This document shows, one piece after another, positions 3,358 to 63,806 of a DNA stretch of 64,000 nucleotides. The DNA is taken from IMG/VR virus record IMGVR_UViG_3300049595_005065, one strand, 5' to 3'. Both the position numbers and the translations under genes were made by a program. Source of the DNA: a virus. Its lineage: Duplodnaviria; Caudoviricetes. The notes under the pieces were generated by a model. That model was given only the letters and a program-made list of their open reading frames with translations. It was not told where the DNA came from and searched no databases. How positions within the stretch are numbered: position 1 is the stretch's first letter; every line of letters begins with the position of its first letter.

Positions 3358-4880
3358 TGCCGTATCGGCCACCTAAAGTGCTTGTGCTGGGCGACCTGAT
3401 GCTCGATCTGTGGATTTCCACGCGAGCCCGGGCTGCCAATCCGGAAGGTGCGGCGATGATCGCGACCGGTTCGTCCGAGGAGCGCGACGCGACGCTCGGC
3501 GGAGCCGGACTGGTCGCGAGCCTGCTGCGCAGTATCGGGCTGCGGGTCAAGGTCATGGGAAAGCTCGGAAACGACACCCAGGGCGCCACGGTCCACGCGC
3601 TGCTCCACGAGTTCGGCCTGGGTTGCAAGAACATCACGTTCGCCGACGACGTCGTTACGCCCGCAAAGATGCGTTTCATCAACGAGCACGGTGTGGTGGC
3701 GTACCGCTACGACGAAGAGCGGGCCCAGGCAGAGTATCTGGCCGACAACTCCAGTCACTTTGACTTCGATCTGTTCAGCAAGCACGCGGAGCTGGCCGAC
3801 ATTGTGGTCGTCGCCGATTACGGCAAAGGCTACTGCCAGACGCACGGCAGGAAAATCATCGAGGCGGCCCGCTACTACCGGGCCCTGACGGTGGTCGGCG
3901 CCAAACCGGCCGTGCTGGCCGAGTACGAGGGGGCGGACGTCGTCAAGGTCAACGCCGCCGAGGCCCGAGAGTTTCTCGAGCTGCAGGGTCTGCCCTGGTC
4001 GGCCGACCGGCACGAGACGGTCAAGATGCTCTGCGAGCGCATGAACTGCGCAGTCGCCGTGATGACCGCCTCGCGCAACGGCGCGGTGTACGCCCTGCGC
4101 CTGGGCGACTCGGGCTACATGACGTTCCACACGGCGGCCAAGCCCTGCTTTCCCAGCGTCGTCAATTGCGTCGGCGCGGGAGACGCGTTCATGGCCGGAT
4201 TCGTGGCTGATCTCGTGCTGCCTCCCAAGGCCAGGCGGCGCATCGAGCTGCTCAAGCTCCATACGGCCGTGGCTGCGGGTGCCGCAACGGCTGCCCAGTA
4301 CCTGACCCGCGGTTACCCTGAGATCGATCCCGCCACGCCGTTTCTTGCGGCTTACAACCGGCGCGTCGAGCTGCTCAGTGCCGCGAAGATTGTTCCGTTC
4401 GACCAGGCCGCCGCGCTCTGCCAGGCCTGGCGGTCGACAAACGAAACCGTTGTCTTCACCAACGGTTGTTTTGACCTGCTCCATCACGGGCACGTCAGCC
4501 TGCTCGAACAGGCCAAGCAGCAGGGCAAGCGGCTGGTCGTCGCCGTCAACAGCGACCAGAGCGTGCGCCTGCTCAAGGGGGCCCAGCGCCCCGTGCAAAG
4601 TTTCGAAACCCGCGCCAAGGTGCTTGCGAGCCTTGGCTGCGTCGATGCGGTGGTGATGCTCGACGAAGACGATTTCGCCGCGCAACCAGCGCTGCGCGCC
4701 ATGATCACGGAGTTCGTCCCGGACGTCCTGGTCAAGGGCGCGCAATACAAGGAGGAGGACATCGTCGGTTTCGAGGAGATGGTAAATCGCGACTCCCCGG
4801 GCCGAATCTGGCGTTGTCCGATGGTGGACAACATCAGCACCACAAGCACAGTCGAAAGAATTCACAATGCCCAGCGATAA
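3357..4880 (+). CDS. hldE: Bifunctional heptose-7-phosphate kinase / heptose-1-phosphate nucleotidyltransferase (HldE/RfaE-like)
   Basis: PfkB motifs VLVLGDLMLD and GAGDAFMAG; nucleotidyltransferase motifs TNGCFDLLHHGH, VAVNSDQSVRLLKG..RP and VLVKG. Confidence 0.9.
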   Translation: MPYRPPKVLVLGDLMLDLWISTRARAANPEGAAMIATGSSEERDATLGGAGLVASLLRSIGLRVKVMGKLGNDTQGATVHALLHEFGLGCKNITFADDVVTPAKMRFINEHGVVAYRYDEERAQAEYLADNSSHFDFDLFSKHAELADIVVVADYGKGYCQTHGRKIIEAARYYRALTVVGAKPAVLAEYEGADVVKVNAAEAREFLELQGLPWSADRHETVKMLCERMNCAVAVMTASRNGAVYALRLGDSGYMTFHTAAKPCFPSVVNCVGAGDAFMAGFVADLVLPPKARRRIELLKLHTAVAAGAATAAQYLTRGYPEIDPATPFLAAYNRRVELLSAAKIVPFDQAAALCQAWRSTNETVVFTNGCFDLLHHGHVSLLEQAKQQGKRLVVAVNSDQSVRLLKGAQRPVQSFETRAKVLASLGCVDAVVMLDEDDFAAQPALRAMITEFVPDVLVKGAQYKEEDIVGFEEMVNRDSPGRIWRCPMVDNISTTSTVERIHNAQR

Positions 4881-6563: not shown

Positions 6564-7748
6564 GTGACTTCGCTGTTTGTGTTTACCGCCGACCTTCACC
6601 TGGAGGACGGCGCCTGGAGCACCAGGCCCAGCATTTACGGCGACGCGTATTACAGCTTCGCCCAGATCGTGGACTACTGCATCGAGAAGCGGCTGCCCCT
6701 GATCCTGGGCGGCGACGTGCTCGAGAAGAAGAGCAACTCCGCCCGGCCGATCGCCAAACTCTGCGAAGGCTTGTCCCGGATGCAGCAGGCTGGCGTGCCG
6801 GTCTACTACATCCAGGGCAATCACGAGTACGACCGCAACGCCCCCTGGCTGTCGGTCCATCCCTGGCCGCAGCACATCCACAGGCAGAGCGTGGAGATCC
6901 AGGGCCATCCGGTCTACGGCCTGGACTGGCTGCCCCGCGGCGAGATTCAGGAGGCCTTCAAGGCGGTGCCCGAGCGCACGCACATCCTGATCACGCACCA
7001 GGTCTGGGAGGACCTGATGAAGGGCCTGGGCCGCACCGAGTGCAGCATCGCCGACGTCCACAACGTCCGCACTGTGCTGGCTGGCGACTTCCACGTCACG
7101 ACGACGGTCGAGGGCATCAACGCCGACGGCCTTCGCACCGAGATGCTCTCGCCCGGCTCAATCTGCATGCAGGACTTGGGCGAGTGCCCGACCAAGTACT
7201 TCTTCGTGATCAACCGGAAGGAAGAAGGCGGCTTCGAGTTCGAAGCGCAAAAGCTGCGTACACGGCCGTTTTTGAACTACGCAGTCAAGGAGCAGGAGCT
7301 GCTGGACCGCCTCTGTGCCGGTGAGTTGGCGACGACCATCGCCGAGGCGCAGGCGCAATGCTCGAATGTCGAGCGCGTCCTGGGCATCGACAAGCCGATC
7401 GTCCGGATCAAGTTCGACAAGCGGCTTCCCGACGCGTTCCTGCGGCTGACCACGGCCGTGGGCGACTCGGCGCACCTGTTCTGCGAGGCTTTGGCCGACA
7501 AAAACGCGGTGCAGCAAAGCAAGAACAACAACCGCGACGGCGCCCGCAACGACGTGCTGGCGGCCCTCTCCGACCTGCTCGGCGCAGACTCGGAGGAGTA
7601 CAAACTCGCCGAGCGCCTGGTCCGGGCCGAAGATCCGGGCAAGGAACTCGAGGCGTTTTTCAACGCGTTTTTCACCGAGGAGGTTCCCTGTGCAATTGTT
7701 GAGACTGGAAGTTCGGAACTGGGTACACCATCGCCAGCGGGTGTGTGA
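6564..7748 (+). CDS. sbcD: SbcD/Mre11-like metallophosphoesterase nuclease
   Basis: Motifs ADLHL, GGDV, QGNHE, ITHQ and AGDFH; adjacent to SbcC. Confidence 0.9.
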   Translation: MTSLFVFTADLHLEDGAWSTRPSIYGDAYYSFAQIVDYCIEKRLPLILGGDVLEKKSNSARPIAKLCEGLSRMQQAGVPVYYIQGNHEYDRNAPWLSVHPWPQHIHRQSVEIQGHPVYGLDWLPRGEIQEAFKAVPERTHILITHQVWEDLMKGLGRTECSIADVHNVRTVLAGDFHVTTTVEGINADGLRTEMLSPGSICMQDLGECPTKYFFVINRKEEGGFEFEAQKLRTRPFLNYAVKEQELLDRLCAGELATTIAEAQAQCSNVERVLGIDKPIVRIKFDKRLPDAFLRLTTAVGDSAHLFCEALADKNAVQQSKNNNRDGARNDVLAALSDLLGADSEEYKLAERLVRAEDPGKELEAFFNAFFTEEVPCAIVETGSSELGTPSPAGV

Positions 7749-18339: not shown

Positions 18340-18699
18340 ATGGGCAACCTGACCACACTGACGATCTATAACGACGGCATTGATCTGCTTCCCAAGCACG
18401 CCCAGGAGTTTGCGGTAGCCTTGCTCGAGGCCACCAATATTTCGGGTACGACGACGATCGCCGTGGGCAACTTCTGCAACCTTGTCAAGGTCCACCAGAC
18501 GCGACACGCCGATGAACGAACGACGTATGTTCACATGGGCAACACGGTTTGCGAGATGAATCCGTGGAGCGCGGAGACCAAGCGGCTGATGCGCGAGAGT
18601 CCCCAGTTCTTCGAGAAGATGCTCAAGTTCATGCGCGCTGAGGTAAAAGCATTGAGCGAAGAGTTCAAGCGAGTTCAGGAAGCCACGAGCACGCCATGA
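18340..18699 (+). CDS. Hypothetical protein
   Basis: GAGGAG RBS; coupled to the polymerase start. Confidence 0.65.
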   Translation: MGNLTTLTIYNDGIDLLPKHAQEFAVALLEATNISGTTTIAVGNFCNLVKVHQTRHADERTTYVHMGNTVCEMNPWSAETKRLMRESPQFFEKMLKFMRAEVKALSEEFKRVQEATSTP

Positions 18700-21600
18700 C
18701 GGCAGTAATGACGTTTCACCACCTGATGTCTCAGGCGTTCGACGACCCGGACAGCGCGGCGCTGGCCGAGGCGCTCTATCCGTTTCTCGACATGACGGGG
18801 CCAGGGATGCCGCAGCCCGGGCCAAACTTCATCGAGCACGCCAACCTGCTGGGCGACTCAATCGATCCGGCGCAGGTCAAAAAGAAGAAGCTCGAGCCGG
18901 GCGAGCACCTGCTGTATCTCTATCGCCGCGCGCTGTACGACGCGACCTTCTCGATGCCGATCCGCGTCAAGAGCGGGCAGAAGGTCTCGCAGTTCGTGCC
19001 GGGTCACATCTGGGGCAAGGCGGCCGAGAAGGCCTACGGCCCCAAGCCCGCCCGGGTCATGATCGTCTCGAAGATCCCCGGGCGGGACGAGATGGCCGAC
19101 GGCTGCGTGATGACCGGCCGGGTGGGGCAGCCGTTCATCGACGTGCTCGAGGATCTCAGCGTGCCACCCGAGGAATACCTCACCTGGTACACGACCTTTG
19201 CTTGCAAGTTCGGCTCGCCAACGCCCGACTCGAGCACCGTGCCCGCCGTCTGGCTTAAGGACTGCGCGCCGCTGCTGGCCCAGGAGCTGCGCCTGGTGCG
19301 CCCGGACTACATCCTGTGCCTGGGGCAAGAGGCGGCCAAGGCCGTGCTCAACACGCCAGGCAATGTCTCAAACCTCTCCGGGCGGGTGATGACCATCAAG
19401 GTCCCCGACCGCCTGGGCGAGCGCGAGATCAAGGTCATGACGGCCATGAACCCCGCGTTCATCCTCCGCAAGCCCGAGGCCTACGAGGACTTCCGCGGTC
19501 AGGTCCGGCGATTCGTGGACCTGATCCATGACCGGATGCAGGACACCGAGACGGTCGACCACGCGGACATCTACACCGAAGAAGCCCTGATCGAGATGGT
19601 CGACGAGATGATCGCCGACCCCGATCCCAACGCGAACATCATCGCCGTGGACTGCGAGTGGCACGGCGACTATCCGACGGAGGCTGGCGCTTATCTCAGG
19701 ACGATCCAGGTCAGCAACCGCGACAAGTGGGCGCGGACCATCGTGCTGCGCTACGACAACGGCGCGGAGGCGTTCCGACCCAATCTCGACGCAGCCCGCG
19801 TTCAACTGAACCGGCTGCTCAAGAGCACCCCAGACCGCAAGGTCCGGGTGGGCGGTCACTTCCTCCGCGCCGACTTGCCGTGGCTGCTCGACTTCGGCGT
19901 GGACTGCCGCGAGGAGTACGCCCCGGCGCCATCGCCCGACATCCGGACTGCGGGCGGCTGGGACACCAGCCTCCTCTACCACGCCTGCAACGAGACGGCG
20001 AAGTTCGGCCTGGACGACTGCTCGATGCGCTTCACGACGGCCCCGACCTACTGGGTCGAGCTCGACAAGTGGAAGAAGGCTTACCAGAAGCGCAAGAAGA
20101 TCAAGGCGAGCGAGATGGAGGGCTACGGCGTGATTCCGTGCTCGGTCCTCCACCCGTACGCCAGCTACGACGCCGACGTCACGCGGCGGATCATGATGAA
20201 GTTCTACGGCACCGACGGTACCGACGGGCTGATCGCCAAAGATATCTTTGGCAACGACTGCTGGCTGCCGTACTGGACGGCGCACCAGGCCAGCCTGGCG
20301 TTCCTCGAGATGGAGCAGACGGGCCTGGTGATCGACCGACCGCGCGCCGACGAGCTGACGACGCTCTTCATGAACACCCAGGACCGGTTGCTCGCGGAGA
20401 TTCGCGCCGACCTGAACTGGCCCACGTTCAACCCGAAGAGCCAGCCGCAGCTCGCCGTGGCCTTGTTCGGGCGGCAGTTCCTGAACCGCTACGCCAACAC
20501 GGTCACCGTGCCGGACGACGTGCGGCCGCTGGACCTGACGCCGGTGAAGACCACCGGCAAGCGCCCGACGCTCTGGAAGGAGCTGAACTACAAAACCCGA
20601 CGCGAGTCGGCCGTTCCCAGCACGGACAAGGAGAGCCTGGGCATTCTGGGCCATACGAACGCCACGGCGGCCAAGATCCGCGACTACAAGTTCATCTCGC
20701 AGGTCCTGGTCTCCGTGTTGCGCAAGCCCAACACCAACGAAGAAGGAGACTTCGAGACCAATGAGGACGGTCATTACACGTATGAAAAAGGCCTTATCGG
20801 AGCTATGCACTCCGACGGCAAGGTCCGTACGCACCTTTTTCAGACTAAGGAAACCGGACGGGCCAGCAGCTCCCGGCCTCCGCTACAGAATCTCAGTTCC
20901 CGGCGCGAGGACGACTACCGGCGGATCCTCGGCGAGTCCTACCGGCATCCCGTCCGCTCGATCCTTCGTGTACCCGAAGGCTGCGTTGGTATCGAGACGG
21001 ACCTCACGGGCGCGGAACTGGCGGTTCTCGCATGGCTCTCGCAGGATCAAAACTTTATTGAACACGTCCGCCGTAACCTTCTTCCCGAAGATCATCCGGA
21101 CCACTACGACATCCACTCGCGACAGGCCGTGAAGGCCTTCGCGCTCTCGGGCGTCGAGCCGACCAAGACCGGAATGAAGAACGCGGGGAAGAAGGGTTTG
21201 CGGGTGGCCGCCAAGAACGTGAACTTCGGCATTCCCTACGGCCGAGGTCCCGAGGCGATCGCCCGACAGTGCAAGGAGGAGGGCGTCGAGGTCACGGCCG
21301 AAGAGTGCCAGTTGATGATCGACGCCTACTTCGAGTCGTACCCCCGGACGAAGGACTTCCTGGCTGAATGCCGGGAGCGCAGTCAGATGCCCGGCTGGCT
21401 CGTGGGCCCCTACGGTCGTTATCGGCGGTTCATGCCCACGACGGACCGCGCCGTGATCGGGGAGCAGCAGCGCCAGGCGCAGAACTTTCCGATTCAAGGC
21501 GGCGTGGCGGATGCCGTGTCGCTGGCGCTCAACAACTTCTACCAGTACCGCCAGGCGCATCCCGAGATTCAGTACGACATTGCGCTGCAGATCCACGACG

Positions 21601-21833
21601 CGATCATGCTCATCGTTCCGATTGAGCACGCCGAGCGGGTCTACAAGGAGGTCGTGCCCAAGTGCATGATCGACGACGTGCCGTTCTGGCCGCGGCGCCT
21701 GGATGGGACGCTCATTCCAGTCAAGGAGCCGTACCACTTCGGCGCTGACCGGGAAGTGTTCGTCAGCTGGGGCGAGAAGCTAAAGCCTGACGCAGCAAAG
21801 ACTTTGGGCTTGAGTTGGTTGTGCGAAGACTGA
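18696..21833 (+). CDS. polA: Family A DNA polymerase with N-terminal UDG-like domain and 3'-5' exonuclease
   Basis: UDG-like block ARVMIVSKIPG..LRLVRPDYILCLG; Exo AVDCEWH and YASYDAD; motif A ETDLTGAEL; motif B RVAAKNVNFGIPYG; motif C QIHDA. Confidence 0.92.
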   Translation: MTAVMTFHHLMSQAFDDPDSAALAEALYPFLDMTGPGMPQPGPNFIEHANLLGDSIDPAQVKKKKLEPGEHLLYLYRRALYDATFSMPIRVKSGQKVSQFVPGHIWGKAAEKAYGPKPARVMIVSKIPGRDEMADGCVMTGRVGQPFIDVLEDLSVPPEEYLTWYTTFACKFGSPTPDSSTVPAVWLKDCAPLLAQELRLVRPDYILCLGQEAAKAVLNTPGNVSNLSGRVMTIKVPDRLGEREIKVMTAMNPAFILRKPEAYEDFRGQVRRFVDLIHDRMQDTETVDHADIYTEEALIEMVDEMIADPDPNANIIAVDCEWHGDYPTEAGAYLRTIQVSNRDKWARTIVLRYDNGAEAFRPNLDAARVQLNRLLKSTPDRKVRVGGHFLRADLPWLLDFGVDCREEYAPAPSPDIRTAGGWDTSLLYHACNETAKFGLDDCSMRFTTAPTYWVELDKWKKAYQKRKKIKASEMEGYGVIPCSVLHPYASYDADVTRRIMMKFYGTDGTDGLIAKDIFGNDCWLPYWTAHQASLAFLEMEQTGLVIDRPRADELTTLFMNTQDRLLAEIRADLNWPTFNPKSQPQLAVALFGRQFLNRYANTVTVPDDVRPLDLTPVKTTGKRPTLWKELNYKTRRESAVPSTDKESLGILGHTNATAAKIRDYKFISQVLVSVLRKPNTNEEGDFETNEDGHYTYEKGLIGAMHSDGKVRTHLFQTKETGRASSSRPPLQNLSSRREDDYRRILGESYRHPVRSILRVPEGCVGIETDLTGAELAVLAWLSQDQNFIEHVRRNLLPEDHPDHYDIHSRQAVKAFALSGVEPTKTGMKNAGKKGLRVAAKNVNFGIPYGRGPEAIARQCKEEGVEVTAEECQLMIDAYFESYPRTKDFLAECRERSQMPGWLVGPYGRYRRFMPTTDRAVIGEQQRQAQNFPIQGGVADAVSLALNNFYQYRQAHPEIQYDIALQIHDAIMLIVPIEHAERVYKEVVPKCMIDDVPFWPRRLDGTLIPVKEPYHFGADREVFVSWGEKLKPDAAKTLGLSWLCED

Positions 21834-54578: not shown

Positions 54579-56066
54579 ATGCCGTTTAAGTCTGAAAAGC
54601 AGCGGCGTTTTCTGTGGGCCGAGCATCCTGAGATCGCCAAGCGCTGGGCGCACAAGTATCCCGAGTCCAACAAGGGCCTGCCGATGTACGCCGACAAGAA
54701 AGACGACACTGATAAGAAAGCCGCGCTTGATGTTCTGGCCCGCGCCGTGTCGAGCTTTAACCAGACGCGCGCATTTCCCAATAATGGTGAAATTAACGGC
54801 GCAAACGCCAAAAAAGCCAACTCCGGGATGATCTACATCGACGTTCCGCAAGGGGACAAGCCAACTTACGCAGGGGAAGATCGCGAGAAGGGTAAGCAGA
54901 CTGAGGGCGAAAAGCAGGTTGCGCACTGTGACGGCGAAAAGGCCGATCAGGACGCTGTAAGCGCTGTTTTTGGCAAGCTGGCCGTTGTTTTGGCGCCGAA
55001 GTTGCGCGAAATGTGGGAGCAGGAACAAGCGCTGACCGAGGGTCGAGAACCCCTGTTTGTGCCGGAAAACCTCGGTGTTCGGCGTTATTCCATTCCGAGT
55101 CCCGTCGTTCCTCCACCGATGGGCATGGCGCCCCAGGCTCCGGCCCAGGCTGGCATGCAGCCCATGGCGCAGCCTGCAAATACTCCCGTGGGCGGCGGCT
55201 CTCATCCCCAGCACAATCCAATTCAGGCTTTCGGACCGCTCGGTGCCAAGGGCCAGATCAACGGCAACGCGGCGTTTGGCCAGAAGAACTCTCCGGACAG
55301 CCTGAAGACCTCCAGCCTAAAGATTCTCACGAGCATTGATTTCTCGGGGCTGCCGGACCCCGATGACTTGGACCTCGACGAAGACGAGCGCACCAAGAGC
55401 GCCGCCAAGCCGTGCTCCTGCGGCTGCGGCGATACGGTGCCGACCTGCAAGTGCTCGAGCGCGCAGGAGTTCGGCGAGAAGCTGGCTCAGGAACTCGAGC
55501 TGAGCCTGCCTGCCCAGGTGGCTGTAATGGCTGCACTGGGCGGCGGCGCAGGTATTCGTCACGGCGGCCTGGCTGGGCTGACCGGCGGCGGGATCTACGG
55601 CGCCATTAATCCAGGCGAGTACGTTGACGAGAAGGGCCAGAAGCAAAAGCGCACCCGGCTCCAGGGCGCAGCGCAGCACGGCTTCGAGAACGCAGGCAAG
55701 CTCGGCCTGATTGGCGGCGGCCTGGGTGCAGCCACGGCGGGTAGCCTGCCGCTCGTGGCTGAGCTGCTGGGCGACAAGAGCGCAGGCCTGGGAACAGCTT
55801 TGGCCCGCGGCACAGCCCGCGGCGTCGAGAACTACAACGAAGACGTGCGCAATGAGAACTCCGAGCAGCGCGACAACCCAGACTATGCGCCCCAGCAAGA
55901 AGTCAGCGACAGCTCGGGCGCGCTGCTGGCGCTGCTCCTGGGCGGCGGTGGTCTGGCCCTGGCGCACGGCCCCAGCCTGATGGGCAAGATGACCGGCGGC
56001 TCCAGGGGTCGACGGACCAAGCGGGCCACCGCGAAAGATATCTTTGACATCGTTCAGGGTGCGTGA
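54579..56066 (+). CDS. Glycine-zipper-containing protein, probable virion/internal protein
   Basis: N-terminal MPFKSEKQRRFLWAEHPEIAKRW; GxxxG hydrophobic segments. Confidence 0.65.
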   Translation: MPFKSEKQRRFLWAEHPEIAKRWAHKYPESNKGLPMYADKKDDTDKKAALDVLARAVSSFNQTRAFPNNGEINGANAKKANSGMIYIDVPQGDKPTYAGEDREKGKQTEGEKQVAHCDGEKADQDAVSAVFGKLAVVLAPKLREMWEQEQALTEGREPLFVPENLGVRRYSIPSPVVPPPMGMAPQAPAQAGMQPMAQPANTPVGGGSHPQHNPIQAFGPLGAKGQINGNAAFGQKNSPDSLKTSSLKILTSIDFSGLPDPDDLDLDEDERTKSAAKPCSCGCGDTVPTCKCSSAQEFGEKLAQELELSLPAQVAVMAALGGGAGIRHGGLAGLTGGGIYGAINPGEYVDEKGQKQKRTRLQGAAQHGFENAGKLGLIGGGLGAATAGSLPLVAELLGDKSAGLGTALARGTARGVENYNEDVRNENSEQRDNPDYAPQQEVSDSSGALLALLLGGGGLALAHGPSLMGKMTGGSRGRRTKRATAKDIFDIVQGA

Positions 56067-58366
56067 GCTCTATGCCGCTTCCATTGGGACCGATGCTTTC
56101 TTCCGTTGGCCGGGCGCTGACTGGCCCGACGGCACGCAATGTCGCTCGCTTCGGCGCAGGCGGCACGGCGGGCTATCTGGCCAACGACGCCTATCTCAAC
56201 CAGGTCAACCCTGAAGTCTCCGACCTGGGCCGGATGCGCTCTAATCTTTTCTCTGGCGTGCTAGGCGGCGCACTGACCAGCCGCGGCGCCATGCCTGCCT
56301 TGGCCCGGGCTGCAAAGGCGCGCGACCCGAAGCTGCTCCTGGGCGGCCTGGGCGTAGCTGCCCGTTATGGCGCGATTCTGCCCGACATGGAGCACAGCCC
56401 GATTGGTTCTGGCGAAGCGCACAACAGAATTGGCCTGGGCTTTGGCAAGCTGCTTGATCCAGGCCACTCGCCGCTGCCCAAGGTCGTGGCGCACATCAAA
56501 GACCAGAAAAAGCTCGAAGAAACGCTGAACACGTGGTCGCGCCCCGTCGAGCACGGCGCCGAAATTGCGACCGACAAGGCGTACGACAAGATCAAAGCTG
56601 ATCTTGAGAAGAACAAGGGTAGCGCCGCGAAGTGGCTGCAAACAGCTGGGTTGCCTGCGACTTACGGCAGCCTGATCACGGCGCTGGGCGGCACGCCGGG
56701 TGAGAAGCCTACGCTCTCCGACGTCGGCATGGCGGCTGTGCCCCATGTTGCAGGCGGCGCTGGCGGAGCTTACCTGGGCCATCTTCTGGGCGGCGGCGTG
56801 GGGAACTTCCTGTTCAAGGACAACCCAAAAGCTGAGTACGAAGAACGCCGTCGCCAGGAACAGCGGCGTTGGTGGCTGCAGTTCCTGGGTTCTAATCTTG
56901 GCGCCGTAGGCGGTGTCTATGGCGCCATGAACGCCGCGCCGCATCTCAACAAGCTGATTGGTTCAGCCATGCAGACCAAGCAGTCGGAGGTGAAGGAAGC
57001 CGTAGGGCCGATTCCGCCGCAAACTTCTGGCCTGCTCATGCGTTCTTTGAGCAACATGCTGCGCACTGGTACGCGCGCAGGTTTGCAACGCGGCGGCCAA
57101 ATGGCGCTGGGTCTAGGCAAAGACATGGCGCTGGCTGGCGGCATGACAGCCGGACAGTACGCCGCGAACATCGTGCCGCCCGGAGGCTACGACGCCCAGG
57201 GCAAGCCGCTGGGCCCGAACACCGACCTGAGCTACATGGGGTCGCTCTACGGCACAAATCTGCTGGGCGCAAGGCTCGCCCGCGGCATGCTGAGCGGCCA
57301 GGCGTTCGCTGGTAAGGCTAACCCCCTGACGCGCGGCCTGACGCTCGGCGCGATGGCCACGGCTGCGCCGAGCGTGGTGAACCTGGGCACGAGCGTTCCG
57401 CCACTGTTTGGGCAGGTGCTCAACCCGGAGAAAATTAACAAGTACACCGCTGCGCTGGATCAGGACACCGGCCGCTTTGGCCAGGATCCCGCGGGAGCTG
57501 CCCAGGCTGCCGCCCGTGGCGCCCAGAAGGCGCTCGCAAACAAGCCAGTCGTTGCTGATGCGGCCAATCTCACCCAGGACGTCGTCGAAGAAGCAGGCGT
57601 GCCGGGCATGAGCGCCAAGGGCAACCAGAGTATCAAGGACATGCTCGGTTCGACGGGCCTGTCCATGCTGGCTCAGGGCGCGGGCATGGCGACCGGCGGC
57701 GTGGCTGGCCTGACGGCGGGCGACTGGCTCGTCGACAAACTGTTAACTACAGCCGTGAACAAGAAGTGGCTCAAGAAGCGCAAGGGGCTGCACCAGTTCC
57801 TGCGTGACCTGGGCGCCGTTGCTGGCGCGGGCCTGGGAGCTTACGGCGGCCTCAAAGCGCTGAACTACGGCGTCCCAGCTGCCGCGAACTACTACAACAA
57901 ACACCTGGCAACGCAGCCCAAGACGGCGAGCGTCACTCCAGACTGGGAAAAGATATCTTTCGAGCTGGGCGGCCTGGACGTCCGGCTGCCCGACGACGTG
58001 AACGCCGCCCGCATGACCGCTATTGCCGCGCTGGTCTCCGGCGCGCTTGGTGCTGGTCGTGGCGCCTACGACCCTGGCTACGACGAGAAGACGAACCGAC
58101 GCGGACACATTATCTCCAAGACCCGCCGCAGTCGCCTGCGGGGCGCTGGCCTGGGCGGCCTGATTGGCCTGACGACGGGCGTGGGCGGCAGCTACACCTC
58201 GCAGTTCGCCAACCAGTACCGGCCCGAGATCGACGGCTACATCCAGAGCTGGCTGCCGAAATCTGTAACCGAGCCGCAGCCACAGGTGGCAGGCGAGGAA
58301 ATGCTGCCGCACGAGAACGTAGACGTGGTGCAACCGCTGCTTGATACAATCAGTCATACCGCCTAG
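56063..58366 (+). CDS. Large Gly/Ala-rich multi-glycine-zipper protein
   Basis: 767 aa; repeated GGAGGAYLG/GAGLGAYGG-type helices. Confidence 0.7.
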   Translation: MSSMPLPLGPMLSSVGRALTGPTARNVARFGAGGTAGYLANDAYLNQVNPEVSDLGRMRSNLFSGVLGGALTSRGAMPALARAAKARDPKLLLGGLGVAARYGAILPDMEHSPIGSGEAHNRIGLGFGKLLDPGHSPLPKVVAHIKDQKKLEETLNTWSRPVEHGAEIATDKAYDKIKADLEKNKGSAAKWLQTAGLPATYGSLITALGGTPGEKPTLSDVGMAAVPHVAGGAGGAYLGHLLGGGVGNFLFKDNPKAEYEERRRQEQRRWWLQFLGSNLGAVGGVYGAMNAAPHLNKLIGSAMQTKQSEVKEAVGPIPPQTSGLLMRSLSNMLRTGTRAGLQRGGQMALGLGKDMALAGGMTAGQYAANIVPPGGYDAQGKPLGPNTDLSYMGSLYGTNLLGARLARGMLSGQAFAGKANPLTRGLTLGAMATAAPSVVNLGTSVPPLFGQVLNPEKINKYTAALDQDTGRFGQDPAGAAQAAARGAQKALANKPVVADAANLTQDVVEEAGVPGMSAKGNQSIKDMLGSTGLSMLAQGAGMATGGVAGLTAGDWLVDKLLTTAVNKKWLKKRKGLHQFLRDLGAVAGAGLGAYGGLKALNYGVPAAANYYNKHLATQPKTASVTPDWEKISFELGGLDVRLPDDVNAARMTAIAALVSGALGAGRGAYDPGYDEKTNRRGHIISKTRRSRLRGAGLGGLIGLTTGVGGSYTSQFANQYRPEIDGYIQSWLPKSVTEPQPQVAGEEMLPHENVDVVQPLLDTISHTA

Positions 58367-58396
58367 TTGGGTGCTTTTCATACACGGAGTCTTGTT

Positions 58397-58882
58397 ATGT
58401 CTGCTTATCAGAAGATTGCCAGCGCCCGCGAGTTCGGCGAAAAATTTGGTGGCTATATCGAATATGCGGGCAATGATCCAAAAGAACTCGCCTGGCAGAA
58501 AAAATACGAAAAGCATGTCCGCAAGTGGGAAAAAGAAGACATGAAGAAAAAGCCAGCCCGCGAGTTCGGCGAGAAGCTGGCCATGGACCCGCGCCTCATG
58601 GGCGGCCTGGGCGGCGCAGCGGTGATGGGTCTGGGAGGCGCCGCGCTGGGCGCGATGAACCCCGGCGAGGAAGAGACAGTTGACGACAACGGCCGGGTCG
58701 TGAAGCGCCAGAAGAGCCGACTGAGCAGCGCGCTGGCGGGCGGCCTGGGTGGCGCACTGGCAGGTGGTGCGGGCGGCGCAGCTTTGGGTCACTTTCGGGG
58801 CGACAACGTGCGGGATTTTGGCAACATGCTGCGGGCGCGACTGGGCGGTGAAACGCAAGCTCCGCCGCCGAAAGTTATCTGA
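58397..58882 (+). CDS. Glycine-zipper protein, paralogous module to 54579 and 56063
   Basis: AREFGEK twice; GAMNPG...SRLSSALAGGLGG. Confidence 0.65.
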   Translation: MSAYQKIASAREFGEKFGGYIEYAGNDPKELAWQKKYEKHVRKWEKEDMKKKPAREFGEKLAMDPRLMGGLGGAAVMGLGGAALGAMNPGEEETVDDNGRVVKRQKSRLSSALAGGLGGALAGGAGGAALGHFRGDNVRDFGNMLRARLGGETQAPPPKVI

Positions 58883-58913
58883 TAGCTAAAAAAACTTGCG
58901 CTATATTGAGCGC

Positions 58914-59654
58914 ATGGACACAGCCCAACAAGCAGAAGACCCCGAGCTGTCGGCCTACATCCAGGTCTACGGCAACAAGCGCGCCGTGCTCGAGAGCCTG
59001 AAGAGCTTTCGGGCGCACTACCCGCGGGCAAAGATATCTTTGATCTCCGACGGCGGAGAAAGCTTCGCTGAGTTTGCGCAGCCTTTCCAGCTCTATTACG
59101 AGCACTCGCCGGTGAACACGCTGCCGAGCGCCCGGCTGGCCAACCCTGACTGCGCCCGGGAGTATCTCCGCAGGATCTACCAGCACTGTCAGCGCGCCAG
59201 GAGCCTCTGGGTGCTGATCCTGGAAGAAGACGTGCTCACGTACCGTCGGGTGCGCAAGTATCCGAAAGTTCACAGCGCTGGGCCCCGGAACAACCCGTTC
59301 TCGCGTGAGCTCAACGAGTACCTGAACAACAAGCGGCTCACGTCCGGCGTGGAGTACTTCTACAACCTCAGCGGCGGGGGAGTTTTTCACCGCGAGACTT
59401 TCCTGCTGTGCTACGAGCAAAACCACTTCGACCTGAACTACGCCTGGCTGCTCGACGAGCGCCTGGCGGCCACGGACGCGCTGCTCTCGGCGTTCTTTCT
59501 GGCCAACAACCAAGACAACGTCGCCTGGGAAGAAGTCTCCGAGAAGCACATTGCCAGGCAGGATTTAGTGATCGACCGGGACGCCGCGTTCGACCACAAC
59601 GACAAGCGCTGGTACGGCCAGCCGTTTGACGCGAGCCTGCTGCCGCGCGCTTAA
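58914..59654 (+). CDS. GT-A-like glycosyltransferase
   Basis: ISLISDGG; LILEEDV; GGGVF. Confidence 0.55.
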   Translation: MDTAQQAEDPELSAYIQVYGNKRAVLESLKSFRAHYPRAKISLISDGGESFAEFAQPFQLYYEHSPVNTLPSARLANPDCAREYLRRIYQHCQRARSLWVLILEEDVLTYRRVRKYPKVHSAGPRNNPFSRELNEYLNNKRLTSGVEYFYNLSGGGVFHRETFLLCYEQNHFDLNYAWLLDERLAATDALLSAFFLANNQDNVAWEEVSEKHIARQDLVIDRDAAFDHNDKRWYGQPFDASLLPRA

Positions 59655-59722
59655 AACCAGGCGCTTTCTGGTAAACTGGCCCGGAATAGATATCTATTGC
59701 CAGAGCAGGCAAGGACGCCCGC

Positions 59723-61624
59723 ATGCCCGCAGCCGCTGTTCCACAAGCCGACCTGCACGCGCGCTTTCAGCCCGACTACACGCCCGAGCAGCTCGAGGGC
59801 CTGGGCGTGTACGACGCGCTGTACCGTGGCGCTGCGCCCCGTCTAGCCAGCCTGGGCGAGTGGAAGCCCGAGTGGATCAGCGAGCATGACCCCAAGGGCT
59901 GGGCCCAGTGGTACAAGCGCTACGCCGCCGGACGCAGGATCCCGGGCGAAGACGAGCGCCAGATCAAGCGCTGGCTGAGCTTCAAGTCGCGCCACGGCGG
60001 GCCATTCGCAAAGAACCCCACAGCGCGCCGGGGCTGGGCGCTGCGCAACTGGGCTGTGGATCCCGCGAAGCTTGTGCCCGAGCAGGCGCAGCAGATCAAC
60101 GACATGCTCGAGGAGCGTAAGCGCAAGGCGATGCAGAAGTTCGTCCAGGAGCGCGTGCAGACTGAGAAAGCTGCTGAGCTGGTTCCTGAAGTTCAGCTCC
60201 AGGAGCACCAGCAGCGCGTTGCCGATAGAGTCTCCACAGGCGACCCCCGCTTGCTCGTCTATCACGGCCTGGGCTCTGGGAAGTCTCTCTCGGCGCTGGC
60301 TGCGGCCGAGGCTGCCAGGAAAGTCCACGGCGATAACTACGGCGTGGTAGTCCCGGCCAGTTTGCGCGGCAACTTCCAGAAGGAAGTCAAGAAGTTCACC
60401 CGGAACTCCAGCCCCGAGATCCTGAGCTACACGGGCCTGGCGCTGGGCAAGCGCTTTCAGAATCCAGCCGACACGGTGGTCATGGACGAGGCGCAGCGCT
60501 TGCGTAATCCGACCTCGGGGGCGACCCAGGGCGCCAAGCAGCTCGCCCGCCAGGCCAAGAGACTCGTGCTTCTCTCGGGCACGCCGATCACGAACTCGCC
60601 GACTGACCTGGCGAGTTTGATATCTTTGCTCGACAACAAGAACATGTCGCCGCAGGAGTTCGAGCAGAAGTTCATTGGGTACAAGAAAAAGTTCCCTGGC
60701 CTGCTTAAGTATCTTCAGGGCGCGCAGTCAGGCGAGGAACCATACGTCAAGAACGAGGGCGAGCTGCGCAAGATGCTCGCCGGAAAAGTTGACTACCAGC
60801 CGAGCAAGACTCCCCAGGGAGTGACAGTCAACGAAGAGACCGTGCAGGTGCCGCTCTCGGGCGAGCAGGAGCGCATCCAGCGCGCCATTCGGACGCGCAT
60901 TCCGCCAGGGTTTCTCTGGAAGCTCGACCAGGAGTTCCCGCTCTCGCGCGACGAGCTGAACAAGCTGAATAGCTTCTTGACTGGCCTGCGGCAGGTGAGT
61001 CTCTCGACGCAGCCATTTCGGGCCGACAAGAATCCGCTCAAGGCGTTCGACCAGTCGAGCAAGCTGCGCGAGGCCATGAAGCGCCTGCGCGAGAACCTGG
61101 ATGCTGACCCGCGGCGCAAGGCGATCGTCTACTCAAACTTCATCGACTCTGGCATTCAGCCGTACGCCCGGGCGCTCGAGCGGGACAAGATTCCTTACGG
61201 GATCTTCCACGGCGGGATCCCTGTGGCCCAGCGCCAGCAAGCACTCAAAGACTACAACGAGGGCAAGCTCAGAGCTTTGCTGCTGGGCCCAGCCGCCGCC
61301 GAGGGAATCTCGACCAAGGGCACCAGTCTCATTCAGCTCCTGGACCCGTACTGGCACGAATCGCGCACGCAGCAGGCCCGCGGCAGAGGTTTGCGCTTCG
61401 ACTCGCACGAGGGCCTGCCCGAGGAGCTCAAGAACGTCGCGGTGCAAAGATATCTTTCGACGAGCAAAGAGCCTGGCTTGTTTAGCAAGTACGTGCTGGG
61501 CCGCCGACGGGAGCGCACCGGCGACGAGGTTTTGCAGCACCTGGCCGACAAGAAAGAGCAGCTCAACGAGGCCTTCCGCAAAATCCTGCGTGAAGTGGGG
61601 ACGCCGCGCGAGACAGTACAATAG
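59723..61624 (+). CDS. SNF2-like SF2 helicase (NCLDV D6/D11-like motifs) with an extra N-terminal domain
   Basis: VYHGLGSGKS; DEAQ; SGTPITN; QARGRGLRFDSH..LP..KNVAVQRY; N-terminal DPKGWAQWYKRY..GRR..EDERQIKRW. Confidence 0.85.
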   Translation: MPAAAVPQADLHARFQPDYTPEQLEGLGVYDALYRGAAPRLASLGEWKPEWISEHDPKGWAQWYKRYAAGRRIPGEDERQIKRWLSFKSRHGGPFAKNPTARRGWALRNWAVDPAKLVPEQAQQINDMLEERKRKAMQKFVQERVQTEKAAELVPEVQLQEHQQRVADRVSTGDPRLLVYHGLGSGKSLSALAAAEAARKVHGDNYGVVVPASLRGNFQKEVKKFTRNSSPEILSYTGLALGKRFQNPADTVVMDEAQRLRNPTSGATQGAKQLARQAKRLVLLSGTPITNSPTDLASLISLLDNKNMSPQEFEQKFIGYKKKFPGLLKYLQGAQSGEEPYVKNEGELRKMLAGKVDYQPSKTPQGVTVNEETVQVPLSGEQERIQRAIRTRIPPGFLWKLDQEFPLSRDELNKLNSFLTGLRQVSLSTQPFRADKNPLKAFDQSSKLREAMKRLRENLDADPRRKAIVYSNFIDSGIQPYARALERDKIPYGIFHGGIPVAQRQQALKDYNEGKLRALLLGPAAAEGISTKGTSLIQLLDPYWHESRTQQARGRGLRFDSHEGLPEELKNVAVQRYLSTSKEPGLFSKYVLGRRRERTGDEVLQHLADKKEQLNEAFRKILREVGTPRETVQ

Positions 61625-61670: not shown

Positions 61671-63806
61671 ATGCCGACTCCCCTGACCCGTGTTTTCCGG
61701 CTGCTGCGCTTCTTTGCGACGCGGCGGCGCGCCGTGAACGAAACGACTGGCGTGCCCACGGATCTGCTGCCAGGCGAGATCGCTTACGGCGAGGACGAGA
61801 ACACGGTCTACATCGGCCGCACTGATGGCTCAGTAGGTATTCTCGCCTCGGGCGGCTCTGTTGGCCCGACTGGTCCCACGGGACCGACAGGCCCCGCAGG
61901 GACGCCCGGTGCCACAGGACCGTCTGGTGCGCGCGGTTTTGTCGGAGCCACCGGCGCCACGGGCGTTACTGGCGCCACGGGGCCCTCGGGAGCTTCCGGC
62001 GCGCGTGGTCCCACAGGAGCTACCGGCGCGACAGGCGCAACAGGTCCGTCTGGTCCAAGCGGTGTACCGGGTTTGCAGGGACCGACGGGCTTGCAGGGCC
62101 TGCCCGGCTCGACGGGGCCGACCGGTCCAACTGGTCCCGCCGGGCCTACTGGTGTTGGTGCGACAGGCGCCACAGGGGCCACGGGACCGACCGGTCCAAC
62201 TGGTCCCGCCGGGCCTACTGGTGTTGGTGCGACAGGCGCCACAGGGGCCACGGGACCGACGGGGCCTTCTGGCGCCGCAGGGTCTACTGGCCCATCGGGC
62301 GTGGGCTTTAACTGGCGCGGAGAATATCAGAACCCAGAAGTCTACGGGCCCTACAACGTCAATGATGTTGTGCTGTTCAACGGCAGCGCGTACATCTGTT
62401 TGCAGTACATGTCAGGTTTGATTGACCCGGAAACAATTCCTGACGGGCCCGATTATTGGGCGCTGTTTGCGGCAGGCGGAACTGCGGGATTGAACGGCGC
62501 GCCCGGCGCTACGGGACCAACAGGCCCAGCGGGCGCCACGGGACCCGCAGGCCCGACAGGCGCTACAGGCCCCACAGGCCCCGCGGGGCCGACAGGCGCG
62601 ACAGGCGCGACGGGACCTAGCGGTTCGGTTGGTGCCACGGGACCAACAGGGCCGTCAGGCGCTGACGGCAAAAGCGTCACGATTCTGGGCAGCTACAGCA
62701 GCGAGAGCGCGTTAATTGCAGCGCAGCCGACTGGTGCCGAAGGCGACGCATATCTTGTTGCTGGCAATTTGTACGTTTGGTCTTCAAACACGGCGACGTG
62801 GACTAACGTTGGCAATATCCAAGGGCCGCAAGGCGCCACCGGTCCGACCGGTCCGACTGGCGCTACTGGCGCTACTGGGACCCCGGGCGCAACTGGCGCA
62901 ACTGGCGCTACGGGGCCGACCGGCCCTCAAGGCGCGACCGGTGCCACTGGTCCCACCGGGCCAAGCGCGCTTAGCGCTGATTTCACCGTGCTGGCCGTTT
63001 CGCAGGGCGCGTACAGCGACGGCATGGTTATTTCGGCGGGCACAGCGATTGAGACGATCATCAAGAACATGCTGCAGGTTGTGGTGCCGCCAAACTACGC
63101 CGCGCCAACGCTTGCGCTAGGGAGCAATATCGCGATTACGGAGATCGGCACGACGGTCTCGCCTACGCTTACGCCGACCTGGACACAGAACGACGCCGGA
63201 ACAGCGACGGCATACACTCTCAAGCGCGGCGGCTCGGGCGGCACGACGATCTACAGCGCGGCAAGCCCGGCGGCCTACACCGACTCCTCGGCGTATCAGC
63301 TTACGACCGCGACGCAGTACTACGCGCGCACTGATTACGGCCAGGGCCCGCTCAAGCAGGACAACACCGGCGCTGACTTTCCAACTGGTCGTATCGCCGC
63401 AGGCTTTAAGGAAGCTACGGCAACGCTCACGCCGCGGCGGCGCGTGTTTTACTGGGCTGACACTAGCACGGATATCCCAACGACCAGGGCGCAGTTTATC
63501 GCGGCGCACGCGACGCCTGTGTTTTTTATCGCCTCGGGGCTTGAGATTGCGATTCCCCAAGGCGCCAAACGCGTGGTGATTGCCGTACCGCAGAGCGCTG
63601 GTTTGACCCTGAACACAAACTCAATCTTCTATGTGCAGCTCAACGGTTTTGTAGGTGACACGTTTACGTTGTTGAATCCGGCACCGCTGATTGGCGGCGC
63701 AAGTGATTACTCGCCGATCGCCTACACTGTGTACTACTACATCACGGGCTCGGGTTTTGGCAGCGCCGCCACGTATCGTCTGCTCTTTACGGTGAACGCC
63801 ACATGA
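61671..63806 (+). CDS. Collagen-like (G-P/A-T) fibre protein, probable tail fibre
   Basis: Three Gly-X-Y tracts; N-terminal [13 protein letters not shown]; WRGEY..YNVNDVV..NGSAYIC. Confidence 0.8.
62118..62255 (+). repeat. Perfect 69-bp tandem duplication within the collagen tract
   Basis: 62118-62186 equals 62187-62255, encoding [23 protein letters not shown]. Confidence 0.9.

What the first reader, a model, noticed from the sequence alone, without database searches (positions are those of the whole stretch)
59723..61624. Giant-virus-style helicase fusion in a phage structural region
Seen: the helicase motifs YHGLGSGK and GRGLRFDSH..LP..NV.V.RY recall the NCLDV D6/D11 SNF2-like helicases, and the N-terminal DPKGWAQWY..RY..GRR..DERQIKRW domain recalls a small protein family seen in large eukaryotic viruses (recall, not searched). 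Inference: a virion-packaged remodeller or early-transcription factor with a phage-NCLDV gene-exchange history.
Basis: inference. Interest (0 to 1): 0.6.

Follow-up and report, generated by a model that had tools for sequence, protein, structure and literature searches.

The report
Phage SNF2 motor with polymerase-linked domain
This gene of an uncultured ~200-kb lake phage encodes an ordinary SNF2-type DNA motor. It is fused to an undescribed small domain that other phages build directly into their own RNA polymerase, so it is most likely a helper of the phage's polymerase and not a gene swapped with giant viruses.

Summary
The ORF (59723-61624, +, 633 aa) and every quoted motif are real.

**Motor.** Residues 151-633 are an intact SNF2 ATPase. 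Its closest relatives are over 400 proteins of related ~200-kb phages (62-95% identity). Among cultured phages the closest are Salmonella phage Arash Gp217 and a Pseudanabaena phage helicase (about 33%). Vaccinia NPH-I shares a distinctive motif VI tail but is no closer overall than archaeal or eukaryotic SNF2 proteins. Gene exchange with giant viruses is therefore not supported.

**N-terminal domain.** Residues ~10-145 form an uncatalogued all-helical, Trp/Arg-rich domain with no Pfam or PHROG match.
- A profile of it finds 826 protein clusters.
- 35 of the 148 best carriers are pieces of phage RNA polymerase (beta N-terminal piece or beta'-N) with this domain attached; 18 are SNF2 proteins.
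- In this clade the domain occurs once per genome, always with the helicase: fused, permuted or as an adjacent gene.
- All four complete relatives encode an Arash-like two-chain RNA polymerase.

**Virion evidence.** Published Arash virion proteomics found Gp217 about as abundant as the polymerase subunits.

**Reading.** Most likely a polymerase-associated, possibly virion-carried SNF2 factor (confidence about 0.5).

The scan reached a similar reading before on a related 205-kb phage (e1-5390929).

The parts
59723..61624 (+). Whole gene: N-domain + SNF2 ATPase, 633 aa
   Evidence: ORF list and translation. More than 400 homologues at 62-95% identity in ~200-kb phage contigs.
59711..59715 (+). 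Ribosome-binding site AAGGA, 7 nt before the ATG
   Evidence: Read directly from the sequence.
59750..60157 (+). N-domain (residues ~10-145): all-helical, Trp/Arg-rich, uncatalogued, linked to RNA polymerase in other phages
   Evidence: No Pfam or PHROG hit. AF2 pLDDT 83. Profile finds 826 clusters. Fused to RNAP beta-N or beta'-N pieces in 35 of 148 carriers.
60167..60175 (+). Junction motif K149-A150-A151 (K-x-A/S), 13 residues before LQEHQ
   Evidence: K149 is invariant. K-x-A lies before the core in 90 of 105 homologues and at other module borders in 27/29 and 21/23.
60173..61603 (+). SNF2 ATPase core (residues 151-627), two RecA-like lobes with SNF2 helical inserts
   Evidence: Pfam PF00176 and PF00271. 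VIA Z 28.4 to INO80 over 402 residues. Foldseek E 3e-19 to Sulfolobus SNF2.
60266..60286 (+). Walker A / motif I, GLGSGKS (residues 182-188)
   Evidence: Invariant in 40 homologues.
60485..60496 (+). Walker B / motif II, DEAQ (residues 255-258)
   Evidence: D255, E256 and A257 are invariant.
60575..60595 (+). Motif III, SGTPITN (residues 285-291)
   Evidence: G286, P288, I289, T290 and N291 are invariant.
61343..61453 (+). Motif VI with its extension (residues 541-577), the stretch that aligns with vaccinia NPH-I
   Evidence: HMMER alignment to 6rfl_Y residues 456-500. Residues are invariant in the clade.
59686..59697 (.). Copy of the genome-wide 12-bp palindrome ATAGATATCTAT, 25 nt before the start codon
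   Evidence: Pattern search: 20 copies in the window, 0 expected by chance.
61446..61457 (.). Palindrome copy AAAGATATCTTT inside the gene, written over codons Q575-R576-Y577-L578 (CAA AGA TAT CTT)
   Evidence: Pattern search. Codon reading is from the coordinates.

Best explanation
The gene encodes a transcription-associated SNF2 DNA translocase of a jumbo phage that brings its own multisubunit RNA polymerase. The C-terminal 480 residues are an active double-stranded-DNA motor. The N-terminal 140 residues are a module that belongs to the phage transcription machinery: in other phage lineages it is part of the beta or beta' polypeptide. Here it most likely couples the motor to the polymerase or to the nucleic acid the polymerase holds. 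By analogy with RapA, Mfd/CSB and poxvirus NPH-I, the motor would push or release stalled polymerase and clear the template. This probably begins with early transcription of the injected genome, because the protein is probably carried in the virion. Shown: domain make-up, intact catalytic motifs, strong conservation, fusion of the N-domain to polymerase pieces, and co-occurrence with a phage polymerase. Inferred: physical contact with the polymerase, packaging in this phage, cutting at the K-x-A junction, and the actual step of transcription served.
For: 1. The SNF2 core is intact, with all motifs invariant.
2. The N-domain and core are obligate partners in the clade. All 120 listed homologues have both, in nine different orders including H-N permutations. 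One relative has a split form with overlapping genes. There is one copy of the N-domain per complete genome, always in the helicase gene.
3. Of the 148 best N-domain carriers, 31 hold the first ~260 residues of RNAP beta followed by the N-domain, and 4 hold N-domain + beta'-N. The profile of that beta segment hits only RNAP beta subunits in the PDB, best E 1.6e-10.
4. Gene context confirms RNAP operons: the next gene is Rpb2_3 in L064, and the domain sits between Rpb2_6 and Rpb1_2 genes in L065.
5. Four of 4 complete relatives encode an Arash-like beta-beta'N chain (1457-1472 aa) plus a beta'-C chain.
6. Three of 4 cultured phage lineages with a stand-alone N-domain also encode a multisubunit RNAP.
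7. Arash Gp217 (33% identical core) lies next to the beta'-C gene. In virion mass spectrometry it had 38 peptides and 1148 spectra, against 1210 for beta'-C and 1333 for the major capsid protein (PMC10585845).
8. Iyer et al. 2021 note a Swi2/Snf2-type helicase tied by phyletic pattern to the RNAP of group 1 (phiKZ-like) jumbo phages and propose a RapA-like role (PMC7824862). That is a different helicase: no phiKZ-like phage matched this core at E <= 1e-5, so this is precedent by analogy only.
Against: - Pseudanabaena phage PA-SR01 has the helicase subfamily but no detectable RNAP.
- In this clade the helicase lies about 40 kb from the RNAP genes, not in one operon.
- Arash Gp217 lacks the N-domain and Arash has no copy of it. 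The N-domain is therefore not needed for packaging or function there.
- The N-domain is also fused to enzymes with no obvious transcription role (LigD 3'-phosphoesterase, PAP2, peptidase C39, GNAT). It also occurs alone in what looks like a bacterial chromosome (L062).
- The Arash virion proteome lists 116 proteins including metabolic enzymes, so carry-over is possible.
- No experiment or confident model shows contact with the polymerase.
Confidence: 0.5

Rival explanations
1. An injected 'polyvalent-type' counter-defence protein, like phage P1 DarB. The SNF2 motor tracks along incoming DNA to shield it from restriction or other defence proteins. The gene serves as a scaffold on which relatives hang further effector domains. 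Any link to the polymerase is incidental.
For: The core matches PHROG_62, a family of very long proteins, at profile positions 674-1100 of 1881 (E 1e-44). Orthologues have gained NUDIX, P-loop kinase, PARP-like, DUF6782 metallopeptidase, DUF6321 and DUF4236 modules at three insertion points. K-x-A/S motifs mark nearly every module border, as expected for processed cargo. Iyer et al. 2017 place SNF2 ATPases among the hubs of polyvalent proteins (PMC5512222).
Against: No DNA methylase, MuF or zincin peptidase partner is present in this protein. The window's own protein has only two modules. This reading does not explain why the N-domain is built into RNAP subunits.
Confidence: 0.2
2. A replication or recombination helicase (fork remodeller or annealing motor) of the phage DNA metabolism set.
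For: The next-nearest cultured-phage relatives (21-28% identity) are SNF2 'DNA helicases' of Gordonia, Pseudomonas and other siphophages. Iyer et al. 2021 suggest that jumbo-phage SNF2 proteins may replace UvsW.
Against: The gene lies far from the replication module of the window: DNA polymerase at 18696-21833, SbcC-like at 7690-9846, and another helicase at 13047-14930. The Arash counterpart is abundant in virions and lies next to an RNAP gene. The N-domain fusions point to transcription.
Confidence: 0.12
3. A hub for RNA or nucleotide end-processing. The N-domain grips RNA or DNA ends or a nucleotide, and it brings repair or signal-degrading enzymes, here a motor, to that substrate. This would counter host attacks on RNA or host nucleotide alarm signals.
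For: Partner domains of the N-domain include LigD_N 3'-phosphoesterase (11 of 77), NUDIX (8), P-loop kinases, 2H phosphoesterases including 2H-SAK and Acb1, PAP2 and inorganic pyrophosphatase. The domain is very basic and rich in aromatic residues.
Against: Several of these enzymes (pyrophosphatase, NUDIX, kinase) sit in the same chains as RNAP pieces, so they fit a transcription-linked role as well. No ligase partner was seen. No binding test was possible.
Confidence: 0.1
4. One reading: a D6/D11-type helicase and a giant-virus domain that moved between phages and nucleocytoplasmic large DNA viruses.
For: NPH-I gives the best single aligned stretch among PDB sequences (residues 250-574, 36.6 bits), with a shared motif VI tail. 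VETF-s (D6) also matches, at E 5.6e-5. The N-domain model matches a Nucleocytoviricota DUF5824 cluster at TM 0.62 over 115 residues.
Against: Whole-protein scores rank Sulfolobus SNF2 and an ISWI-like protein above NPH-I. By structure NPH-I is rank 35. All near homologues are phage proteins. There is no Pfam hit to NPH-I-specific or DUF5824 models in this protein or in 30 diverse N-domain proteins. The best PDB fold match of the N-domain, mimivirus R596 at Z 4.2, is below any useful threshold.
Confidence: 0.05

Closest known systems
Salmonella phage Arash Gp217 'DNA helicase' (WGL32668.1), with RNAP Gp206/Gp216
   Same: The SNF2 core is 32.5-33.8% identical over 95% of its length. The genome has the same layout of a beta-beta'N chain plus a beta'-C chain. 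Gp217 was detected in virions at the level of the polymerase subunits (PMC10585845).
   Different: Gp217 is 472 aa and lacks the N-domain; Arash has no copy of that domain. In Arash the gene abuts the beta'-C gene. In this clade the two lie about 40 kb apart.
Vaccinia virus NPH-I (D11; PDB 6RFL chain Y) and VETF small subunit (D6; 7AMV chain W)
   Same: They are SNF2-like ATPases carried in the virion with the viral RNA polymerase. Motif VI has the form Q..GR..R..SH with a following P.E...V.V stretch. Profile E-values are 5.8e-10 and 5.6e-5; VIA Z is 23.1.
   Different: They are not closer than archaeal or eukaryotic SNF2 proteins. No NPH-I C-terminal domain is present. The N-terminal domains are unrelated. 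No evidence of common descent beyond the SNF2 superfamily was found.
Escherichia coli RapA (HepA), the RNAP-recycling SNF2 ATPase
   Same: Proposed working analogy: an SNF2 motor that acts on the polymerase. Iyer et al. 2021 proposed the same analogy for a different, phiKZ-type jumbo-phage helicase.
   Different: RapA did not appear among PDB sequence hits at E <= 1e-3 or among the 50 best structural rows. RapA's own N- and C-terminal domains gave no Pfam hit here.
Polyvalent proteins of phages and plasmids (Iyer et al. 2017), e.g. P1 DarB; PHROG_62
   Same: The SNF2 core matches PHROG_62 (E 1e-44). Orthologues show modular gain of unrelated enzyme domains. Virion delivery is likely.
   Different: No adenine methylase, MuF or zincin peptidase is present. 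The invariant partner is an undescribed domain tied to RNAP.
Virion-associated SNF2 helicases of nucleus-forming jumbo phages (e.g. 201phi2-1 gp233)
   Same: It is an SNF2 domain helicase of an RNAP-carrying jumbo phage. It is listed with virion proteins and localises with capsid 'bouquets' (PMC10245766).
   Different: No similarity was detected by tblastn at E <= 1e-5 in the phage collection. It has no N-domain fusion.
Pfam DUF5824 (PF19141), a family of Nucleocytoviricota
   Same: A predicted-structure match of the N-domain: TM 0.62, 115 residues, rmsd 3.1.
   Different: No sequence-level match in any scan. The function of DUF5824 is unknown, and no paper mentions it.

Membership tests
SNF2/SWI2 ATPases (Pfam PF00176 + PF00271) | Two RecA-like lobes with helicase motifs I, II, III, V and VI intact | tested here: met
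   GLGSGKS, DEAQ, SGTPITN and Q..GRG.R are all invariant in 40 homologues. Pfam matches are above cut-off.
SNF2/SWI2 ATPases (Pfam PF00176 + PF00271) | SNF2-type fold including the helical inserts in both lobes | tested here: met
   VIA Z 28.4 (INO80, 402 residues, rmsd 2.8), 27.3 (SRCAP) and 26.6 (Snf2h). Foldseek E 3e-19.
SNF2/SWI2 ATPases (Pfam PF00176 + PF00271) | Canonical SNF2 motif VI (D-R-x-H-R-I-G-Q) | tested here: not met
   The motif here is QARGRGLRFDSH, the general SF2 form also seen in NPH-I. This is a variant within the family, not grounds for exclusion.
Giant-virus D6/D11 (VETF-s / NPH-I) helicases | Closer to D11/D6 than to other SNF2 proteins | tested here: not met
   By profile, Sulfolobus SNF2 scores E 1.1e-12 and an ISWI-like protein 1.6e-10, ahead of NPH-I at 5.8e-10. 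By structure, NPH-I is rank 35 at Z 23.1 against 28.4 for the best match.
Giant-virus D6/D11 (VETF-s / NPH-I) helicases | Motif VI extension GR..R..SH..P.E...V.V | tested here: met
   HMMER alignment of profile positions 530-574 to NPH-I residues 456-500.
Giant-virus D6/D11 (VETF-s / NPH-I) helicases | Family-specific C-terminal domain of NPH-I | tested here: not met
   Pfam found no hit other than generic helicase families at E <= 1.
Giant-virus D6/D11 (VETF-s / NPH-I) helicases | Position inside the giant-virus clade in a tree | not testable with these tools
   No giant-virus sequences could be obtained for a tree.
Polyvalent proteins (Iyer et al. 2017) | Several domains of unrelated activity in one phage polypeptide | tested here: inconclusive
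   The window's protein has two modules. Of the 120 homologues, 71 carry at least one further module, some of them kinase, NUDIX, PARP-like or peptidase.
Polyvalent proteins (Iyer et al. 2017) | Delivery with the virion (MuF or other head-linked domains, or proteomics) | not testable with these tools
   The only evidence is the Arash counterpart in published virion proteomics. No head-linked domain was seen.
RapA/HepA | RapA-specific N- and C-terminal domains and close core similarity | tested here: not met
   No RapA domain was found by Pfam. RapA is absent from PDB sequence hits at E <= 1e-3.
Pfam DUF5824 (PF19141) | Match to the family model | tested here: not met
   No hit at E <= 10 for residues 1-160. 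No hit at E <= 1 for 30 diverse N-domain proteins.
Pfam DUF5824 (PF19141) | Same fold | tested here: inconclusive
   TM 0.62 to one predicted-model cluster. There is no solved structure, and the best PDB Z is 4.2.

The most novel reading that the evidence does not exclude
The Trp/Arg-rich N-domain is a general docking (or nucleic-acid-gripping) module of phage multisubunit RNA polymerases. Through it, phages hang a changing set of helpers on the transcribing enzyme: an SNF2 motor, pyrophosphatase, NUDIX, kinases and end-trimming phosphoesterases. They do so either in the same chain as beta or beta' or in trans. This would be a phage counterpart of the 'complete' poxvirus virion polymerase complex or of helper recruitment by the eukaryotic polymerase tail. 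The domain could share distant ancestry with the giant-virus DUF5824 family.
Probability: 0.25. Interest if true: 0.75.

Novelty: new variant of a known kind. Interest (0 to 1): 0.55.

Why it matters
Phage-encoded multisubunit RNA polymerases are poorly understood, and how they start, stop and recycle is largely unknown. This work identifies a conserved SNF2 motor tied to such a polymerase through a domain that no database describes and that I found in no paper. That same domain sits inside polymerase subunits of other phages next to pyrophosphatase, NUDIX and kinase modules. This gives a concrete handle: a candidate accessory factor and a candidate recruitment module. Both could be tested in the cultured phage Arash and in Vibrio jumbo phages. 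The work also corrects an appealing but unsupported story of gene exchange between phages and giant viruses. The resemblance to poxvirus NPH-I is one of working logic and of one motif, not of demonstrated descent.

Tried and rejected
- **Complex prediction.** The SNF2 core against the N-domain gave no verdict (score 0.00). It counts neither for nor against binding.
- **N-domain family scans.** Single-sequence Pfam and PHROG scans were empty. The PDB profile search gave only chance-level hits.
- **N-domain fold searches.**
  - Foldseek against the PDB found nothing.
  - Foldseek against BFVD gave one weak row, G8DGZ4 at E 0.067.
  - VIA-wide gave a best Z of 4.2, to the C-terminal domain of mimivirus R596, below any useful level.
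- **Weak leads not relied on.** DUF4880 (FecR anti-sigma N-domain) hit 4 of 30 members at E 0.003, and sigma region 4 and HTH rows scored Z 2.5-3.2. These are too weak to use.
- **DUF6321.** The language-model feature search suggested it is a relative of the N-domain (score 0.79). Inspection shows an unrelated Cys-containing motif that merely co-occurs.
- **No near-identical cultured phage.** Megablast of 14 kb around the gene against cultured phages found no match.
- **Own genome.** The window's whole genome is not held, so the RNAP was checked in four complete relatives and not in this genome.
- **Literature.** Searches for DUF5824, DUF6321 and for D11-like helicases in phages found nothing useful.
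- **PA-SR01.** The paper has no proteomics.
- **Other hits.** The tblastn hits in Pseudomonas, Xanthomonas and Gordonia phages are ordinary ~55-80-kb siphophage helicases, not phiKZ-type phages.
Full report
**1. What is there**

The window holds an ORF at 59723-61624 (+) of 633 aa, with an AAGGA ribosome site 7 nt upstream. Pfam finds SNF2-rel_dom (residues 249-318) and Helicase_C (452-559). PHROG_62 'DNA helicase' matches residues 113-562 at E 1e-44. Residues 1-160 match no Pfam or PHROG family, even at E 10. Earlier notes of this scan say the window belongs to an uncultured freshwater phage of about 208 kb. No whole genome is held for the window.

**2. The motor**

An AlphaFold model built on 40 homologues (pLDDT 75.8) aligns over residues 151-627 with many solved SNF2 ATPases:
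- INO80, Z 28.4
- SRCAP, Z 27.3
- Snf2h, Z 26.6
- CSB, Z 24
- vaccinia NPH-I, Z 23.1 (rank 35)

Foldseek ranks Sulfolobus SNF2 first at E 3e-19. Walker A, DEAQ, SGTPITN and motif VI are invariant across the clade, so the enzyme should be active.

A profile of the clade against PDB sequences gives:
- Sulfolobus SNF2, E 1.1e-12
- an ISWI-like protein, E 1.6e-10
- NPH-I, E 5.8e-10
- Rad5, E 7.5e-10
- VETF-s (D6), E 5.6e-5

NPH-I gives the longest single alignment, covering residues 250-574. The protein as a whole is no nearer to poxvirus helicases than to other SNF2 proteins.

**3. Relatives**

The protein database returns 405 hits. The best 120 are 62-95% identical and come from contigs of up to 212 kb. 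Among 50,697 cultured-phage records only two pass E 1e-14:
- Salmonella phage Arash Gp217: 32.5% identity by tblastn (33.8% in a local alignment)
- the helicase of Pseudanabaena phage PA-SR01: 33% identity

All further hits are ordinary SNF2 'DNA helicases' of Gordonia, Pseudomonas, Listeria and other phages at 21-28% identity.

**4. A fixed pair on a shifting scaffold**

All 120 homologues contain both the N-domain and the core, but in nine arrangements. X stands for extra modules:

| Arrangement | Count |
|---|---|
| N-H | 43 |
| N-X-H | 31 |
| N-H-X | 24 |
| X-N-H | 7 |
| N-X-H-X | 5 |
| X-N-X-H | 2 |
| X-N-H-X | 2 |
| H-N or X-H-N (permuted) | 6 |

- **Extra modules.** Those that could be named include DUF4236, DUF6321, P-loop kinases, NUDIX, a PARP-like domain and a DUF6782 peptidase. 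Most have no family match.
- **Split form.** One relative encodes a 1041-aa helicase and a 179-aa N-domain as overlapping neighbouring genes.
- **Copy number.** Each of four complete relatives has exactly one full N-domain, in the helicase gene.
- **Conservation.** The helicase is far better conserved (62-83%) than its neighbours (32-55%).
- **Border motif.** Nearly every module border carries K-x-A/S:
  - before the core, 90 of 105 homologues have K-x-A in the 22 residues ahead of the conserved LQEHQ anchor, typically 13 residues before it
  - before an internal N-domain, 27 of 29
  - after the core when more follows, 21 of 23
  - about 0.1 is expected by chance per 20 residues

  In this protein the motif is K149-A150-A151. 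This fits an earlier agent's reading of K-x-A as a processing signal of packaged proteins (e1-5340455). I did not test the protease link.

**5. The N-domain**

It is all-helical (pLDDT 83) and rich in invariant Trp, Tyr and Arg.

A profile of it finds 826 clusters among 1.84 billion representatives. The carriers are 78-2184 aa long, and the domain sits at any position in them.

Pfam partners among carriers include:
- LigD 3'-phosphoesterase
- NUDIX
- P-loop kinases
- 2H phosphoesterases
- PAP2
- inorganic pyrophosphatase
- SNF2
- in two long proteins, RNA_pol_Rpb1 domains

Following that last lead, BLAST mapping of the 148 best carriers against the clade's polymerase showed:
- 31 begin with the first ~260 residues of RNAP beta and then carry the N-domain, directly or after pyrophosphatase, NUDIX or kinase modules
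- 4 carry (NUDIX-)N-domain-beta'N
- 18 carry the SNF2 core

A profile of the beta-like segment hits only RNAP beta subunits in the PDB: 44 hits, best E 1.6e-10, covering beta residues ~26-240. Gene context agrees. In L064 the next gene is the Rpb2_3 piece of beta. In L065 the domain lies between the Rpb2_6 gene and the Rpb1_2 region. In other phage lineages the N-domain is therefore part of the split polymerase subunits.

**6. Polymerase in this clade**

Four of four complete relatives encode an Arash Gp216-like beta'-C chain (E 1e-43 to 1e-48). They also encode one 1457-1472-aa chain holding both Rpb2_6 and Rpb1_2. I confirmed it in the relatives but could not check it in this genome. Three of four cultured phage lineages with a stand-alone N-domain also encode a multisubunit polymerase: Vibrio pVa-21, Vibrio BONAISHI and Cobetia Carin-5. 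The Flavobacterium phage, whose match is short and weak, does not. PA-SR01 has the helicase but no detectable polymerase.

**7. Virion link**

In Arash the helicase gene follows the beta'-C gene among structural genes. Published virion proteomics found Gp217 with 100% coverage, 38 unique peptides and 1148 spectra. Compare Gp216 at 1210, Gp206 at 3516, sigma Gp10 at 467 and the major capsid protein at 1333 (PMC10585845). That list has 116 proteins, so some carry-over is possible. A virion-listed SNF2 helicase is also reported for the nucleus-forming phage 201phi2-1 (PMC10245766). Iyer et al. 2021 tie a Swi2/Snf2-type helicase of group 1 (phiKZ-like) jumbo phages to their polymerase by phyletic pattern and suggest a RapA-like role (PMC7824862). 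No phiKZ-like phage matched this core, so that is an analogy and not evidence about this helicase.

**8. Giant-virus echo of the N-domain**

The ESM-atlas fold search gives TM 0.62 over 115 residues to a Nucleocytoviricota cluster carrying DUF5824. That is as good as the matches to unnamed phage and bacterial clusters that are probably true relatives (TM 0.57-0.60). No sequence method links the two. The best PDB row, mimivirus R596 at Z 4.2, is not significant. It remains a lead.

**9. Verdict**

The evolutionary part (phage-giant-virus exchange) is not supported.

The best explanation is an RNA-polymerase-associated SNF2 translocase whose N-domain is a polymerase-linked module (confidence about 0.5). 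The rivals are:
- a DarB-like injected counter-defence scaffold (0.2)
- a replication or recombination helicase (0.12)
- an RNA-end-processing hub (0.1)
- giant-virus descent (0.05)

A related 205-kb phage was read in much the same way earlier in this scan (e1-5390929). My evidence (fusions to beta and beta' pieces, permuted and split forms, PDB profile checks) was gathered independently of it.

Noticed in passing
L003:8836-9666, L007:9085-9855, L060:733-1536 and 31 further related loci; absent from window 1-64000: A trypsin-like serine protease gene with an N-terminal hydrophobic leader lies 0.1-3.5 kb upstream of the helicase in 34 of 38 related loci (48-69% identity). It has no homologue anywhere in this window, where the upstream gene is an unrelated 252-aa ORF (58896-59654). 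Given the Lys-x-Ala junction motifs, a link between this protease and processing of the helicase protein is worth testing.
   Followed up: partly
window 59686-59697 and 61446-61457: Two copies of the genome-wide 12-bp palindrome flank or enter the gene. One lies 25 nt before the start codon. The other is written over codons Q575-R576-Y577-L578 with the AT-rich codons AGA, TAT and CTT, inside the conserved motif VI tail.
   Followed up: partly
P0221, P0225, P0233, P0247-P0250, P0257, P0193; P0177, P0196, P0253 (metagenomic proteins): In other phages the split RNA polymerase pieces carry whole enzyme modules in the same chain. Inorganic pyrophosphatase, NUDIX or P-loop kinase follows the beta N-terminal piece, and NUDIX precedes beta'-N. 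These polymerase subunits have built-in nucleotide-handling enzymes, and I found no description of them.
   Followed up: partly
L004:15808-16431; P0053:749-823; P0090:683-757: DUF6321, a Cys-containing 72-aa domain, occurs both as a separate gene about 4 kb downstream of the helicase and fused to the helicase C-terminus in other relatives. Modules seem to move between the helicase gene and its neighbourhood.
   Followed up: no
L062:6001-6504 (JGI contig of 115 kb): A stand-alone N-domain protein (167 aa) sits among ABC transporter, MerR, NUDIX and hydrolase genes in what looks like a bacterial chromosome. The domain is therefore not confined to phages.
   Followed up: no
window 54579-58882: Three consecutive ORFs (495, 767 and 171 aa) upstream have no Pfam or PHROG match. 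The 495-aa one is the only neighbour loosely kept upstream of the helicase in relatives, at 32-55% identity.
   Followed up: no
window 61671-63806: The gene just downstream is a 711-aa collagen-repeat protein. It matches many PHROG tail-fibre families through its Gly-x-Thr/Ser repeats, and homologues appear after the helicase in only 2 of 38 related loci.
   Followed up: no
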